From IMG/VR virus record IMGVR_UViG_2718218100_000001: 64,000 bases of DNA. The stretch is one strand, 5' to 3'. Shown here one piece after another: positions 9,001 to 15,000 of the stretch. Made by a program: the position numbers. Source of the DNA: a virus. Taxonomy: Duplodnaviria; Heunggongvirae; Uroviricota; Caudoviricetes. The first letter of the stretch is position 1. Each line of letters begins with the position of its first letter.

Positions 9001-12000
9001 AAAGGGATGCGGCTAACGTATGAAATTCTTCGTCTGTTTCTACTGGTATTGGCACAAACCTGACTCCAATTTGAGCGAGGCTATGTGCCATCTCGATACT
9101 CGTTCTTAATTCAACAGGAGATGCTTTGTGCATACAGCCCCTCGTTTATTATTTATCTCTTCAGCCAGCCGCTGTGCTTTCAGTGGATTTCGGATAACAG
9201 AAAGACCGGGAAATACCCAGCCTCGCTTTGTAACGGAGTAGACGAAAGTGATCGCGCCTACCCGGATATTATCGTGAGGATGCTTCATCGCCATTGCTCC
9301 CCAAATACAAAACCAATTTCAGCCAGTGCCTCGTCCATTTTTTCGATGAACTCCGGCACCATCTCGTCAAAACTCGCCATGTAATTTTCATCCCGCTCAA
9401 CCACGACATAATGCAGGCCTTCACGCTTCATGCGCGGGTCATAGTTGGCAAAGTACCAGGCATCTTTTCGTGTCACCCACATGCTGTACTGCACCTGGGC
9501 CATGTAAGCCGACTTTATGGCCTCGAAACCACCGAGCCGGAACTTCATGAAATCCCGGGAGGTAAACGGGCATTTCAGCTCAAGGCCATTGCCGTCACTG
9601 CATAAACCATCGGGAGAGCAGGCGGTGCGCATACTTTCGTCGCGATAGATGATCGGGGATTCAGTAACATTCACGCCGGAAGTAAACTCAAACAGGACTC
9701 TGGCGTCGTTCTCGTACTGTTTTCCCCAGGCCAGCGCCTTAGCGTTAACTTCCGGAGCCACACCGGTGCAAACCTCGGCAAGCAGGGTGTGGAAGTAGGA
9801 CATTTTCATGTCAGGCCATTTCTTTCCGGAGCGGGGTTTTGCTATCACATTGTGAACTTCTGAAGCGGTGATGACGCCGAGCCGTAATTTGTGCCACGCA
9901 TCATCCCCCTGTTCGACAGCTCTCACGTCGATCCCGGTACGCTGCAGGATAATGTCCGGTGTCATGCAGCCACCTTCTGTTCAGAGGCTTTCTGTTTCAG
10001 GAATCCAAGAGCTTTCACTGCTTCGGCCTGTGTCAGTTCTGACGATGCGCGAATGTCGCGGCGAAATATCTGGGAACAGAGCGGCAATAAGTCGTCATCC
10101 CATGTTTTATCCAGGGCAATCAGCAGAGTGTTAATCTCCTGCATGGTTTCATCGTTAACCGGAGTGATGTCGCGTTCCGGCTGACGTTCTGCAGTGTATG
10201 CGGTATTTTCGACAATGCGCTCGGCTTCATCCTTGTCATAGATACCAGCAAATCCGAAGGCCAGACGGGCACACTGAATCATGGCTTTATGCCGTAACAT
10301 CCGTTTGGGATGCGACTGCCACGGCCCCGTGATTTCTCTGCCTTCGCGGGTTTTGAATGGTTCGCGGCGGCATTCATCCATCCACTCGGTAACGCAGATC
10401 GGATGATTGCGGTCCTTGCGGTAAATCCGGCATGTACAGGATTCATTGTCCTGCTCAAAGTCCATGCCATCAAACTGCTGGTTTTCATTGATGATGCGGG
10501 ACCAGCCATCAACGCCCACCACCGGAACGATGCCGTTCTGCTTATCAGGGAAGGCGTAAATTTCTTTCGTCCACGGATTAAGGCCGTACTGGTTGGCGAC
10601 GATCAGCAATGCGATGAACTGCGCATCGCTGGCATCACCTTTAAATGCCGTCTGGCGAAGAGTGGTGATCAGTTCCTGTGGGTCGACAGAATCCATGCCG
10701 ACACGTTCAGCCAGCTTCCCTGCCAGCGTTGCGAGTGCTGTACTCATCCGTTTTATACCTCTGAATCAATATCAACCTGGTGGTGAGCAATGGTTTCAAC
10801 CATGTACCGGATGTGTTCTGCCATGCGCTCCTGAAACTCAACATCGTCATCAAACGCACGGGTAATGGCTTTTTTGCTGGCCCCGTGGCGTTGCAAATGA
10901 TCGATGCATAGCGATTCAAACAGGTGCTGGGGCAGGCCTTTTTCCATGTCGTCTGCCAGTTCTGCCTCTTTCTCTTCACGGGCGATCTGCTGGTAGTGAC
11001 GCGCCCAGCTCTGAGCCTCAAGACGATCCTGAATGTAATAAGCGTTCATGGCTGAACTCCTGAAAATGGCTGTGAAAATATCGCCCGCGAAATGCCAGGC
11101 TGATTAGGAAAACAGGAAATGGGGTTAGTGAATGCTTTTGCTTGATCTCAGTTTCAGCATTAATATCCATTTTTTATAAGCGTCGACGGCTTCACGAAAC
11201 ATCTTTTCATCGCCAATAAAAGTGGCGATAGTGAATTTAGTCTGGATAGCCATAAGTGTTTGATCCATTTTTTGGGACTCCTGGCTGATTAAGTATGTCG
11301 ATAAGGCGTTTCCATCCGTCACGTAATTTACGGGTGATTCGTTCAAGTAAAGATTCGGAAGGGCAGCCAGCAACAGGCCACCCTGCAATGGCATATTGCA
11401 TGGTGTGCTCCTTATTTATACATAACGAAAAACGCCTCGAGTGAAGCGTTATTGGTATGCGGTAACGCAGCGCTCAGGCGGCTTTGATAGTCATATCATC
11501 TGAATCAAATATTCCTGATGTATCGATATCGGTAATTCTTATTCCTTCGCTACCATCCATTGGAGGCCATCCTTCCTGACCATTTCCATCATTCCAGTCG
11601 AACTCACACACAACACCATATGCATTTAAGTCGCTTGAAATTGCTATAAGCAGAGCATGTTGCGCCAGCATGATTAATACAGCATTTAATACAGAGCCGT
11701 GTTTATTGAGTCGGTGTTCAGAGTCTGACCAGAAATTATTAATCTGGTGAAGTTTTTCCTCTGTCATTACGTCATGGTCGACTTCAATTTCTATTGATGC
11801 TTTCCAGTCGTAATCAATGATGTATTTTTTGATGTTTGACATCTGTTCATATCCTCACAGATAAAAAATCGCCCTCACATTGGAGGGCAAAGAAGATTTC
11901 CAATAATCAGAACAAGTCGGCTCCTGTTTAGTTACGAGCGACATTGCTCCGTGTATTCACTCGTTGGAATGAATACACAGTGCTTATTCGTACTAATAAA

Positions 12001-15000
12001 ATACCCAATTTTCTGTTTCTTGGTTGTGTCCAAAGTTATATTCAATATCTGGTGTTGATGTATCAATATTCTTCATACCATCAACAAGAGTTGATACAAC
12101 AGCCAAATCTTGTTTGATTCTCATTAAATGGTATTTCTTCCGGCGCAATAAACTTTCAATGGCAAGTTTCTTCGTTGGGAATGCAAAAGATCTTTCTGCA
12201 TTTTTTGCTACTTTCTTAATTGCATATCTATTTCTCCTTTGTTTCCATTCATGTAACCACTGATTTGGTGCTGGTTTAAAATTAACAATCCAATGCGCAG
12301 GAACCAACCATGCATAATGCTCTGTCTGATGAAAAGCTATATATTGAAGTGCGAATATTTTTATCCCATCTTCTTCAACTGTCGCCTGGAATCTCCAGAA
12401 AACAGGCATTCCATCATGTTCAGTTTCTGATTCAGGAAAAGGTACGCTCCATGATTTTGTCATATCTCACCTCAAATAAGTGGTTTGCTGCCTAATTTCA
12501 TTTTCTGGCGACCAACACAAGTCACCTCGCCGTCAGTTGTTTTGATTTCCGGTAGCCTGCCGCGTAAATGGCTACGTTTGGAAGACATACACCAGTTTCT
12601 GGTTGCTTATGTCCAAACTCATTCGCGTACACAATGGCCGCTCGCTCCAGATTGCGTCTGTATTCTTTCTGTTGCCAGATCACGTCCTGTGCCATGAACT
12701 TAATTGGCTTAGCGTCTTCTATGCGCTCAGGCGTTTCGTGAGTACCTTTAGCCTGAATCTGCGCTCTGCTTAGAGTAGGGCGGTGTAATACTTCTGAACT
12801 TATTGCTTCTTCGCGGGCCAGCACGCCGTTAGCTAATGCCTTTGCCTTTAAACGCTCACGACGACGAGAACGTGAATTGCCTTTGAACTGAGTTCTGCGT
12901 GTCATATAGACCTCCTGATGAACTTTGGTGGTGTGGTAGGTGGGAGACCCATTTCGACCTGTTTCGGCCTACTTCAATTCGGCAATAGTCCCGCAGGCCT
13001 CGCCGCTTTACGTGCGACATATTCCCGTCCATGAACCCTTCACCACACCCCAAAGTTCACTTTGGTTATTGCGCTTTGTCAGCGCCGTAGATTCATATTC
13101 GAATCGTTGTATATTCACCGCCATGGTGAGTAGTGCGTCCTGCTGATGGGTGAACTTTATCGGAATGATAAATTAATGGCAATAGCAAAATGATAAATTC
13201 TCTTGGTTTTCAAATATCGTATTGATTCTTATGGTGTTTTATTTTGTTGTAGGAATTCGACAGGATAAATAAAGAGATTTGAGGGAGATCTGGATTGCGT
13301 TGTTTAGCAAGTTGTATCTATCAATTTTTCAATAAATACAATTGGTTATGTTTTTTAGGCGGGGGGATCGTGAGGCAAAGAAAACCCGGCTCGGTGGCCG
13401 GGTTGATGGGATTATCGTTTATTTCTTTGATGTTTCTTTGCAGACTCAGCTTGAGTGTTTCCATACCTGCGTTTACCGCTATTGTTTTTTCCTCTAGGCT
13501 TGCTTTTTTTCGATCTTCCCACCAGTCAGTTCATGCTCGGCGAAGTGTTTACGATGCGTAGCATGAACACGCTGCATGAAAAACCCGCATCAATTAAAAT
13601 TGCTGCTTTCTTCATAAGAGTCCCAAAAAAAATAGCCCAGAGCCGTTATGCAGATATTAACAATTGTCTGCGAACGGGGCTGGGCTTGGTTTAATTAATC
13701 TATGCCAAGTTGACTGTGCCGTCAACATAAAACTTACTTCCTATCACCCAAACGTCTCTTCAGGCCACTGGCTATCAGCTATGTGACGATGAAGTCACGA
13801 ACTTTTCAGCCACTCCCTTGCCTCGATGTCATCCAGATGGCGAGATTGCTTCAGAATACCAGCCACATACTCCACCTTTGCTACTTGATGATAAGGCAAC
13901 GTTATAGGCCTGTGATCCTGGTTAATGCTTGTAAATTGGTATTCTCCATCTCTGTCATAGCCAAGAACCTTAATCATGTTGTGTCCTTCAACGGTTCTGA
14001 CAAACACCTCATCACCCGGGAATACTTTGGTGTTAGGCTCAATGAGTACATATTCTCCTGATTTTATTCTGGGCCACATGCTGTCTCCTTTCACACGAAG
14101 ACCAAAGGCATCTGGATCATCGCTATAAATTTTGAGCCACCCATCGCGCTCTTCGGTCATCTCGATGGCACCATCAACACCAAGAATTGCCTCACCAACC
14201 ACGCGCACTAACCCTTTTCTTACCTGACCGACAAAAGTTAAAGAATCTGAGCATGATGCAATTGGTGTTACATCATGTACCAAATCAAGCCACCCATTAG
14301 GTAACCCAAGCGCGGCTTCAAATTTTCTTGCTAGTTTATCCCCTATGTTTCGAGTGCTTTTTTCACCGGAGACTTGCGTGAGTTGAGAAGGGCTAACCCC
14401 AAGCTTATCGGCAAAGCTTGCATTAGTGTTACCCGCGATTTTTTTATGCTCATCTAGCAAAAACGCCAGATTCGATTTGCGAATATCTTTGTTTTCCATC
14501 TCACAATTTTCCCTCTATTTAGCAAATGGATAAATACGCAATATGATAAATTTACATTGCGGTTGATTTATCAAAATGGTAAAGTTATTCTGTGTGATAA
14601 ACGGAGGCACTAATGAGTAATGAACTACTACGCTGGCGAAAAGAGGCTTCTAGTGAGGAATGGAAGCGACTCGCCGCATTAGCGAAAACTTCAGTTGGCT
14701 ATCTTGACCAGATTGCATATGGATTTCGAAGAGCTTCCCCTGATAAAGCGAATGCAATCGAAGAAGCTACTCGTAATTTCACGGGTTATAAACCTGTGAA
14801 AAAGGAAAACCTAGTGTTCGTATCGCGTAGAGCATCGGCTGCATAAGTAACACCGCTATTTTCACAATGGACATTCGTCCTACGTCGCTGACAAAGCGAG
14901 TCCCAATATATCTGACCAACTAAGGCTACATGCGTTTCCACGCATACCTTTCAACTAACTATTCACTATTGGAAATCTTAAGAAATGGAACAAACAAGTT

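What the first reader, a model, noticed from the sequence alone, without database searches (positions are those of the whole stretch)
11993..12463. Unknown 156-aa gene in the ral/sieB position upstream of N
In lambda the interval between ea10 and N carries ral and sieB, which are restriction-alleviation and exclusion functions. Here it holds a single unrelated AT-rich 156-aa ORF, a plausible anti-defence or exclusion gene of undescribed type.
Basis: inference. Interest (0 to 1): 0.45.

Follow-up and report, generated by a model that had tools for sequence, protein, structure and literature searches.

The report
Uncharacterised early phage gene after N
This is a real, very common but never-studied phage gene (HK97 gp45 / 933W L0079) that sits in the swap-in slot where phage lambda keeps its anti-restriction gene ral. 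It encodes a small basic protein whose predicted shape matches no solved structure, so it is a reasonable but unproven candidate for a new host- or defence-modulating function.

Summary
The ORF at 11993-12463 (minus strand, 156 aa) is real. It is stop-free beyond chance, under strong purifying selection, and has a strong ribosome-binding site. The window is a Stx1 phage like AU5Stx1. The gene is 933W L0079 / Phi24B vb_24B_11c / HK97 gp45 (PHROG 1636), annotated "hypothetical" everywhere, and it occurs in 597 of 5426 complete E. coli genomes.

It lies downstream of N in the pL operon, not upstream. It is an exactly exchangeable cargo between two conserved junctions: the 3' end of N plus a 58-nt spacer, and a 126-bp element that is the lambda PreS sRNA/tL2a terminator. 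The same slot holds ral alone in phage 21, sieB+ral in lambda, sieB plus an unknown gene in a Salmonella phage, an Nmad5 protein in PhiR12_2, and an 83-86-aa unknown in VT2-Sakai-type phages.

Function is untested. An early cytoplasmic counter-defence or host-modulating role is the best guess (about 0.4); prophage-type exclusion is unlikely.

The parts
11993..12463 (-). CDS of the 156-aa protein (HK97 gp45 / 933W L0079 / PHROG 1636). It is 18.6 kDa with pI 9.1 and no membrane segment. Residues 66-117 carry a net charge of +13, and both termini are acidic.
   Evidence: ORF. 100% identical to AU5Stx1_240 and 99.8% to 933W L0079. 98.7% aa identity to HK97 gp45. phrog_1636 at E 1e-111. Physical properties. 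dN/dS 0.07-0.18. AlphaFold pLDDT 94.8.
12464..12521 (-). 58-nt N-to-ORF spacer carrying the Shine-Dalgarno GAGGTG (12468-12473). No intrinsic terminator and no promoter. Together with the 3' end of N it forms the conserved left junction of the cargo slot.
   Evidence: Sequence. The fold has a z-score of +0.36, so no unusual structure. No terminator or promoter site here. Homology with PhiR12_2 and HK106 ends at window 12471 and 12461. The identical spacer precedes the ORF behind at least 3 different N alleles.
12522..12905 (-). Antitermination protein N (HK97/933W/H-19B allele), the gene immediately upstream in the pL transcript.
   Evidence: Pfam N_peptide at 2e-15. 99.7% identical to 933W N and 97.4% to HK97 N.
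13071..13137 (-). nutL (N-utilisation site, leftward), placed by homology. It marks the 5' part of the pL transcript that carries N and the ORF.
   Evidence: 933W annotates nutL at L001 5327-5393. Window 13146..11300 aligns to L001 5318..7164 at 99.4% identity.
11858..11983 (-). Conserved 126-bp 3' element. It has a 12-bp hairpin (about 11951-11978) and an intrinsic terminator (stem 11869-11890 plus a U-tract). It is the homologue of the lambda PreS (LPR1) sRNA / tL2a terminator. It forms the 3' UTR of the ORF and the invariant right junction of the cargo slot.
   Evidence: Terminator scan. Fold dG -48 kcal/mol, z -4.7. 99% identical to lambda 33921-34046, between ea10 and ral. Nearly invariant in 6 phages with different cargos. 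PreS/tL2a is described in bioRxiv 10.1101/2024.10.31.621285.
11474..11842 (-). ea10 homologue (DUF2528), the next gene downstream. It belongs to a separate insertion/deletion cassette (11461-11857) that is absent from HK97.
   Evidence: Pfam DUF2528 at 1.5e-46. HK97 homology jumps from window 11858 to 11460.

Best explanation
Shown:
- The ORF is the HK97 gp45 / 933W L0079 gene, a genuine protein-coding gene under purifying selection.
- It is a self-contained cargo in one exchangeable slot of the lambdoid early-left (pL) operon. The slot is bounded by the conserved 3' end of N plus a 58-nt spacer on one side, and by the PreS sRNA/tL2a terminator on the other.
- Other lambdoid phages carry different cargo there: ral, sieB+ral, sieB plus an unknown gene, an Nmad5 protein, or an 83-86-aa unknown.
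- The product is a soluble, basic, single-domain protein. Its confident predicted fold is a three-stranded sheet, two short helices, a fourth strand, a 33-residue helix and an ordered C-terminal tail. This fold has no counterpart among solved structures.
- The residues conserved across the whole superfamily are mostly basic: R24, K76, K87, R92, R108, K109 and H115.

Inferred:
- The gene has no promoter of its own, and no intrinsic terminator separates it from N. It should therefore be silent in the repressed prophage.
- It should be made together with N in the first minutes after infection or induction, before N-dependent antitermination is needed.

Most likely mechanism (inference, about 0.4): the protein acts alone in the cytoplasm as an early accessory factor that helps lytic growth. 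It would do so by binding a nucleic acid, or a host protein that handles nucleic acids, through its conserved basic face. The most probable target is a host defence such as a restriction-type nuclease, making it a functional alternative to Ral with an unrelated structure. The identity of the target is unknown.
For: Identity and reality:
- establish the identity. dN/dS is 0.07-0.18 and the ORF exceeds chance.

Slot anatomy:
- Homology with phages carrying other cargo breaks precisely at window 12461-12471 and resumes at 11983.
- The right junction is nearly invariant and equals lambda PreS/tL2a.
- Cargos seen in the slot: phage 21 has ral only; lambda has sieB+orf28+ral; 1717 and HK106 have an 83-86-aa protein of phrog_2471; PhiR12_2 has Nmad5; Salmonella phage 118970_sal4 has sieB plus a 121-aa protein.
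- gp45 fills roughly a quarter of slots: 80 of 325 phage records and 833 of 3196 places in E. coli genomes.
- It is found behind at least 3 N alleles, with or without ea10.
- It never occurs with Ral or SieB in 80 loci or in the window.

Expression logic:
- There is no promoter-like site upstream.
- There is no terminator between N and the ORF, and a strong terminator follows it. HK97 and HK106 annotate the same terminator.

Protein:
- pI is 9.1, there is no membrane segment and the core is basic. Conserved basic residues are listed.
- It is a stand-alone domain with no conserved partner gene.

Relevance to lytic growth:
- Fold relatives occur in phages of Erwinia, Achromobacter, Delftia, Tenacibaculum, Rhizobium and Cellulophaga. 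Several of these are virulent (my own knowledge, not tested here).

Counter-defence flavour:
- Of the cargos that read in the same direction as pL, one is Ral and one is a nucleotide-modification-associated protein.
- DNA methyltransferases lie in the same operon as distant homologues in three unrelated phages.
Against: - No functional datum exists for any family member.
- Guilt by position is weak. The slot also carries genes of unknown function and an exclusion gene (sieB). Early-left operons are general dumping grounds for accessory genes, so nearby methyltransferases may mean nothing.
- A basic surface fits a regulator as well as an inhibitor.
- Rho-dependent termination between N and the ORF cannot be excluded, so N-independent expression is not proven.
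- The consensus promoter scan would miss weak or non-sigma-70 promoters.
- In Pectobacterium and Brenneria prophages the homologue sits at the far end of the operon, next to xis-int. Immediate-early timing is therefore not a family-wide trait.
- The phage already carries other restriction-evasion genes: a 'restriction alleviation protein' and methylases are annotated in the 100%-identical AU5Stx1 record.
Confidence: 0.4

Rival explanations
1. A phage-development regulator rather than a counter-defence factor. On this reading it is a small nucleic-acid-binding protein made early that tunes transcription, replication, recombination or the lysis-lysogeny decision, like its operon neighbours cIII, Kil and Gam.
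For: - The core is basic and the superfamily-conserved residues are mostly basic.
- The gene lies in the early-left operon among regulators and recombination genes.
- In Salmonella phage NX263 the homologue heads a small operon with a 'DNA binding protein', a MarR-type regulator and a DNA polymerase III beta subunit.
- In metagenomic locus L014 it lies near YopX and DnaT-like genes.
Against: - The gene is freely replaced by unrelated cargo behind the same N and in front of the same downstream genes, so the core developmental programme does not need it.
- It is independent of the N allele and of ea10.
Confidence: 0.27
2. A superinfection-exclusion or anti-phage defence gene that protects the lysogen or the infected cell against other phages, as SieB does from the same slot.
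For: - SieB occupies this slot in lambda and in Salmonella phage 118970_sal4.
- The gene is AT-rich and looks horizontally acquired.
- It is carried by 11% of complete E. coli genomes, in up to 4 copies.
Against: - No promoter of its own was found, and the gene is co-directional with the CI-repressed pL. In lambda and in Salmonella phage 118970_sal4, sieB lies on the opposite strand to pL.
- There is no membrane segment, unlike SieB.
- There is no PADLOC match.
- Relatives occur in phages I know (from memory, not tested here) to be virulent and so without a lysogen to protect.
Confidence: 0.12
3. An enzyme acting on nucleic acids or nucleotides, for example a modification, cleavage or signalling-molecule-degrading activity with a new fold.
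For: - Polar positions are conserved across the superfamily: E46-T47, K87, R92, R108/K109 and H115.
- One alternative cargo of the slot is a nucleotide-modification-associated domain, Nmad5.
Against: - The best-conserved acidic residue (E46 in 51 of 55 sequences) is Q in the E. coli clade itself.
- There is no recognisable catalytic motif and no similarity to any enzyme fold.
- The protein is small, and much of it is a single long helix.
Confidence: 0.08
4. A hitch-hiking passenger that gives the phage no benefit and is kept only because it lies between two recombination-prone conserved junctions.
For: - The gene is dispensable for the phage type, since related phages lack it.
- Some prophage copies are truncated (88% coverage in some O157 strains and in JLK-2012).
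Against: - Purifying selection is strong (dN/dS 0.07-0.18) across genera whose synonymous sites are saturated.
- The superfamily is conserved across very distant phages.
- The translation signals are intact.
Confidence: 0.03

Closest known systems
HK97 gp45 (NP_037731) = 933W L0079 (AAD25424) = Phi24B vb_24B_11c = WP_000167595; PHROG phrog_1636
   Same: It is the same gene. Identity is 98.7-100% at the protein level. The position is the same (N, then the gene, then the terminator) and so are both flanks.
   Different: Nothing of substance differs. None of these has an assigned function. Every source calls it 'hypothetical protein' or 'Prophage protein'.
Lambda / phage 21 Ral (restriction alleviation, 66 aa)
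   Same: It is the exact positional analogue. In phage 21 ral is the single gene between N and the PreS/tL2a element, followed by ea10, cIII, kil, gam, bet and exo, just as the ORF is here. Both read in the same direction as pL, and both are dispensable cargo.
   Different: There is no sequence similarity. The size differs (156 against 66 aa). The basic alpha/beta fold has no solved relative. Restriction alleviation has not been tested.
SieB (superinfection exclusion B; Pfam PF14163) of lambda and P22-like phages
   Same: It occupies the same slot in lambda and in Salmonella phage 118970_sal4.
   Different: In lambda and in Salmonella phage 118970_sal4, sieB lies on the opposite strand to pL. 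The Salmonella SieB matches PF14163, whereas the ORF does not. SieB is a membrane protein made in the lysogen from its own promoter (established knowledge, not tested here). The ORF has no hydrophobic segment (best Kyte-Doolittle 19-residue mean 0.56), no SieB similarity and no promoter.
Other cargos of the same slot: VT2-Sap20-type 83-86-aa protein (phrog_2471), Nmad5 protein of PhiR12_2 (PF18757), 121-aa phrog_3054 protein
   Same: They have identical flanks and orientation, and they are interchangeable with the ORF.
   Different: They are unrelated in sequence (hhalign probabilities below 1%). Their functions are also unknown.
Distant relatives: phrog_13631, phrog_25384 and BFVD models from phages of Erwinia, Achromobacter, Delftia, Rhizobium, Tenacibaculum, Cellulophaga, Pseudomonas, Vibrio, Pantoea and Klebsiella
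   Same: They share the same single domain of about 130-160 aa, with 17-30% identity. Shared motifs are Y-R near the start of strand 1, a G in the hairpin, E-T, and K...RFAF-T..A...L..RK..Q..HL.
   Different: Most lack the first 18 residues. Most also lack the C-terminal YNFGHN.ETE.W motif of the enterobacterial clade. Their genomic positions vary: in early operons, next to xis-int, or as small islands among structural genes.

Membership tests
HK97 gp45 / 933W L0079 family (PHROG phrog_1636) | Full-length match to the family profile, and near-identity to the named members | tested here: met
   phrog_1636 at E 1.3e-111, covering 1-156 of 156. 98.7% aa identity to HK97 gp45 and 99.4% to 933W L0079.
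Cargo of the lambdoid N-to-PreS/tL2a slot of the pL operon | Lies between the conserved 3' end of N plus spacer and the conserved PreS/tL2a element, and is replaced by other genes in phages that share both flanks | tested here: met
   Homology breakpoints at window 12461-12471 and at 11983. The right junction is invariant. Alternative cargos are documented.
Ral (restriction alleviation) | Sequence similarity to lambda Ral | tested here: not met
   BLASTP E 24. No Pfam or NCBIfam match.
Ral (restriction alleviation) | Alleviates type I restriction and enhances modification in vivo | not testable with these tools
   This needs plating of unmodified phage on EcoKI/EcoBI hosts with and without the gene.
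SieB (PF14163) | Match to the SieB profile | tested here: not met
   No Pfam match. BLASTP against lambda SieB gives E 0.22 over 14 residues. The Salmonella SieB control scores 7.9e-28.
SieB (PF14163) | Membrane protein with hydrophobic segments | tested here: not met
   The best Kyte-Doolittle 19-residue mean is 0.56 and GRAVY is -0.58.
Moron in the sense of Juhala et al. 2000 (an autonomous unit expressed from the prophage) | Own promoter upstream and own terminator downstream | tested here: not met
   No sigma-70-like site at 8 of 12 matches or better in the 487 nt upstream on the coding strand. The downstream terminator is the shared PreS/tL2a, present whatever the cargo. Deviant base composition, a moron-like trait, is present.
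Known anti-phage defence systems (PADLOC-DB 2.0) | Match to any defence-protein model | tested here: not met
   The only hit is a chance-level one (Cas1_II, E 0.02, 12 bits).
Anti-defence or other proteins with solved structures | Fold similarity to a solved structure | tested here: not met
Nucleic-acid-binding proteins (generic) | Conserved positively charged surface and a recognised binding fold | tested here: inconclusive
   The basic core has a net charge of +13 over residues 66-117, and R/K/H residues are conserved. No known DNA- or RNA-binding fold or motif was found. Binding itself is not testable here.

The most novel reading that the evidence does not exclude
HK97 gp45 / 933W L0079 would be the founding, experimentally tractable member of a widespread phage protein superfamily with a new fold, found in both temperate and virulent phages of Proteobacteria and Bacteroidota. 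It would neutralise a host immune system by a mechanism unrelated to Ral, Ocr or ArdA. It would be delivered as an immediate-early product co-transcribed with N.
Probability: 0.3. Interest if true: 0.65.

Novelty: new member of a known kind. Interest (0 to 1): 0.4.

Why it matters
- The gene is carried by the medically important Stx phages (933W, H-19B, Phi24B, BP-4795, Stx1a phages) and by the model phage HK97. It is in about one in nine complete E. coli genomes, yet nothing is known about it.
- It is probably among the first proteins made on infection or induction. It occupies a slot whose only characterised cargos are an anti-restriction gene and an exclusion gene.
- HK97 and lambda genetics are easy, so its role is directly testable. 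One route is to swap ral for gp45.
- A positive result would define a new fold family that reaches into many virulent phages.
- The base-pair-resolution map of the slot also gives a simple recipe for harvesting further candidate accessory genes. The slot runs from the 3' end of N and its spacer to PreS/tL2a, and occurs at about 3200 places in complete E. coli genomes.

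Tried and rejected
Searches that gave nothing useful:
- Pfam, NCBIfam and PADLOC scans of the protein found nothing significant.
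- A Pfam scan of 55 diverse relatives found nothing.
- Profile searches of PDB sequences found nothing.
- The AFDB50 Foldseek library was not available.
- The search for related loci with the diverse alignment failed for lack of a conserved stretch.
- tblastn with distant member P0072 found no phage.

Hypotheses rejected:
- Apparent multi-domain relatives (P0056 of 940 aa, P0081 of 444 aa) are repeat or low-complexity artefacts, not fusions.
- The upstream 153-aa neighbour in locus L011 is not a paralogue.
- The AgvB/AsxR anti-sRNA idea fails because those RNAs lie at pR', not here.
- Rfam finds no RNA family inside the ORF.
- Linkage to the HK97-type N allele is rejected, because the gene follows at least three N alleles.

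Literature:
- Searches by locus tags, accession numbers, 'HK97 gp45' and a peptide string found nothing.
- The accessory-gene screen of Silas et al. 2025 does not contain the protein in its supplements.
- The EHEC phage paper that sequenced phi345 and related phages does not discuss the gene.

Full report
**1. What is there**

The minus strand of 11993-12463 carries an ATG-initiated ORF of 156 codons. A GAGGTG Shine-Dalgarno sequence lies 4 nt before the ATG (sequence). Several tests show it is not a chance ORF.
- With its own base composition, 156 stop-free codons have a probability of about 3e-6.
- Only 2 of 2000 shuffles of the 679-nt ea10-N interval reach this length.
- dN/dS is 0.16 against HK97, 0.18 against Rosenbergiella, and 0.07 between the Brenneria and Pectobacterium copies. 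In most other pairs synonymous sites are saturated while the protein stays 55-65% identical.
- GC content is 35.5% (GC3 26%), against 49.5% for N and 49.1% for the window.

**2. Identity**

The window is essentially Stx1-converting phage AU5Stx1. The ORF is 100% identical to AU5Stx1_240 and 99.8% identical to 933W L0079, and it occurs in 80 phage records at 95% nucleotide identity or more. At the protein level it is 98.7% identical to HK97 gp45. It is also present in H-19B, Phi24B (vb_24B_11c), BP-4795, Min27 and phage 86.

It is found in 597 of 5426 complete E. coli genomes, at 833 places and up to 4 copies per genome, including non-STEC strains. Every source names it 'hypothetical protein' or 'Prophage protein'. 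Its PHROG family, phrog_1636, has no function assigned. I found no paper that mentions it under any identifier.

**3. Anatomy of the locus**

On the leftward (minus-strand) transcript the order is nutL, N (12522-12905), a 58-nt spacer, the ORF, a 126-bp structured element, ea10 (11474-11842), the cIII thermoregulator with cIII/kil, and then gam, bet and exo. The ORF is therefore downstream of N, not upstream.

Pairwise comparisons sharpen that statement.
- HK97 is collinear from window 13151 to 11858 at 98% identity, then skips ea10.
- PhiR12_2, HK106 and Salmonella phage 118970_sal4 share N and its spacer down to window 12461-12471, and PhiR12_2 and HK106 carry unrelated DNA exactly where the ORF lies. 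For the Salmonella phage the upstream homology ends at window 12524, at the end of N. All three resume homology at window 11983.

The ORF is thus a precisely exchangeable cargo between two conserved junctions. The cargos seen in the slot are:
- ral alone in phage 21;
- sieB+orf28+ral in lambda;
- sieB plus a 121-aa unknown in the Salmonella phage;
- an 83-86-aa unknown (phrog_2471, 'VT2-Sap20') in HK106 and phage 1717;
- a 207-aa Nmad5-domain protein in PhiR12_2.

None of these is related to the ORF.

In 80 IMG/VR loci the ORF follows at least three different N alleles, always with the same spacer. It occurs with or without ea10. In 64 loci PreS starts 9 nt after its stop codon, and in six a further pair of small genes is inserted there. 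Neither Ral nor SieB occurs in any of these loci or anywhere in the 64-kb window.

**4. The right-hand junction is a known sRNA**

Window 11858-11983 folds into a 12-bp hairpin plus a canonical intrinsic terminator (dG -48 kcal/mol, z -4.7). It is nearly invariant in six phages that carry different cargos.

It is 99% identical to lambda 33921-34046, which lies between ral and ea10. That lambda sequence is LPR1/PreS, an Hfq-dependent sRNA of about 88 nt. It ends at terminator tL2a and raises DnaN synthesis (bioRxiv 10.1101/2024.10.31.621285). Here it forms the 3' UTR of the ORF.

The element occurs in 325 phage records and at 3196 places in 2236 E. coli genomes. gp45 therefore fills about a quarter of the slots.

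**5. Expression logic (inferred)**

No sigma-70-like site was found, even at 8 of 12 matches, in the 487 nt upstream on the coding strand. No terminator-like structure lies between N and the ORF. The first intrinsic terminator after pL is the PreS/tL2a element behind the ORF; HK97 and HK106 annotate it too.

The ORF should therefore be repressed with pL in the lysogen and be co-transcribed with N as soon as pL fires. Rho-dependent termination and weak promoters cannot be excluded with these tools.

**6. The protein**

It is 18.6 kDa with pI 9.1 and no hydrophobic segment. Both ends are acidic, and residues 66-117 carry a net charge of +13.

An exhaustive profile search of 1.8 billion representatives found 87 relatives. 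Most are stand-alone proteins of 130-160 aa with 18-27% identity. All 55 that I aligned fall in phrog_1636, phrog_13631 or phrog_25384, which are families of unknown function, and none has a Pfam domain. The longer 'hits' are repeat artefacts.

Residues conserved across the superfamily are Y/W23, R24, G33, E46, T47, K76, K87, R92, A94, A101, R108, K109, Q112, H115 and F155, so most are basic.

Foldseek against viral models finds 13 relatives at E below 1e-3, all uncharacterised. They come from phages of Erwinia, Achromobacter, Delftia, Rhizobium, Sinorhizobium, Tenacibaculum and Cellulophaga. tblastn adds phages of Pseudomonas, Vibrio, Pantoea, Klebsiella and Salmonella.

Genomic contexts vary. 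The gene is found within early operons, as the last gene before xis-int in Pectobacterium and Brenneria prophages, and as the first gene of a small opposite-strand island among structural genes. No partner gene recurs. DNA methyltransferases lie in the same operon in three unrelated cases, but this is weak evidence.

**7. Interpretation**

Three things are firmly shown.
- The ORF is a real, selected, autonomous accessory gene.
- It occupies the exact slot that holds ral and/or sieB elsewhere.
- Its product has no detectable relationship, in sequence or predicted fold, to any characterised protein.

From here on I am inferring. The evidence points to a single protein that acts early in the cytoplasm during lytic growth, probably by binding a nucleic acid or a protein that handles one:
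- it depends on pL for expression;
- it is soluble and basic;
- it stands alone, with no partner gene;
- it has relatives in virulent phages;
- other co-directional cargos of the slot are Ral and Nmad5.

I rate a counter-defence role (a structural alternative to Ral) as the single most likely reading, at about 0.4. The other readings are:
- a developmental or regulatory nucleic-acid-binding role, about 0.27;
- prophage-type exclusion or defence, about 0.12, disfavoured by the lack of a promoter and of membrane segments;
- an enzyme, about 0.08;
- a passenger with no function, about 0.03, disfavoured by the strength of selection.

**8. Verdict**

As a sequence the gene has been known since the HK97 and 933W genomes. 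As biology it is a blank. I rate it of moderate interest: a prevalent, early, tractable gene with an apparently new fold, sitting in a slot with a track record. There is, however, no evidence yet of anything mechanistically surprising.

Noticed in passing
window 11858-11983 (-): This is a homologue, 99% identical, of the lambda PreS/LPR1 Hfq-dependent sRNA with the tL2a terminator. Here it forms the 3' UTR of the ORF. It is nearly invariant whatever cargo precedes it. It is present in 325 phage records and at 3196 places in 2236 of 5426 E. coli genomes. Rfam has no family for it.
   Followed up: yes
window 11951-11978 (-): A perfect 12-bp hairpin (GUGUAUUCAUUC/GAGUGAAUACAC) starts about 15 nt after the ORF stop codon, just 5' of the PreS body. 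It is conserved in all six phages compared. It could be a processing or stabilising element for the sRNA or the mRNA.
   Followed up: partly
window 11461-11857 (-): The ea10 (DUF2528) gene is a separate insertion/deletion cassette. HK97, HK106 and PhiR12_2 join the PreS terminator directly to the cIII leader (window 11858 to 11460). Among gp45-carrying IMG/VR loci, roughly half have ea10 and half do not.
   Followed up: partly
L016 3446-4069 (Escherichia phage PhiR12_2): The same slot behind the same N allele holds a 207-aa protein with a full-length Nmad5 domain (nucleotide modification associated domain 5; PF18757, E 9e-71; phrog_1965). It has no assigned role in a lambdoid phage.
   Followed up: no
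L017 3443-3694 (HK106); L027 2199-2459 (Stx2 phage 1717): A third common cargo of the slot is an 83-86-aa protein (VT2-Sakai 'Sap20', phrog_2471). It has no known function and starts at the same ATG position as gp45.
   Followed up: no
L036, L042, L051, L060 (IMG/VR contigs), between the gp45 stop and PreS: Some prophages carry an extra 540-560 bp here, with two further small ORFs (92-98 aa, and 52-70 aa ending ...DAMLKARE). The slot can therefore hold several cargos in tandem.
   Followed up: no
L022 4001-6401 (Salmonella phage vB_SpuS_NX263); L014 2919-3365: A 64%-identical homologue heads a small operon that lies on the opposite strand in the middle of the head/tail genes. The operon also holds a DNA-binding protein, a MarR-like gene and a DNA polymerase III beta-like gene. 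A distant homologue is similarly isolated among structural genes in a metagenomic phage.
   Followed up: no
window 11356-11414 (-): The lambda cIII thermoregulator RNA element (Rfam RF01804, 88.5 bits, E 1e-21) is intact upstream of cIII.
   Followed up: no
window 12522-12592 (-), the 3' end of N: The last 60-70 nt of N are shared at 93-100% identity by phages whose N genes are otherwise unrelated (lambda-like, HK620, HK629, mEp213). In one N allele the reading frame even runs on into the spacer. This looks like the recombination junction that lets N alleles and slot cargos reassort.
   Followed up: partly
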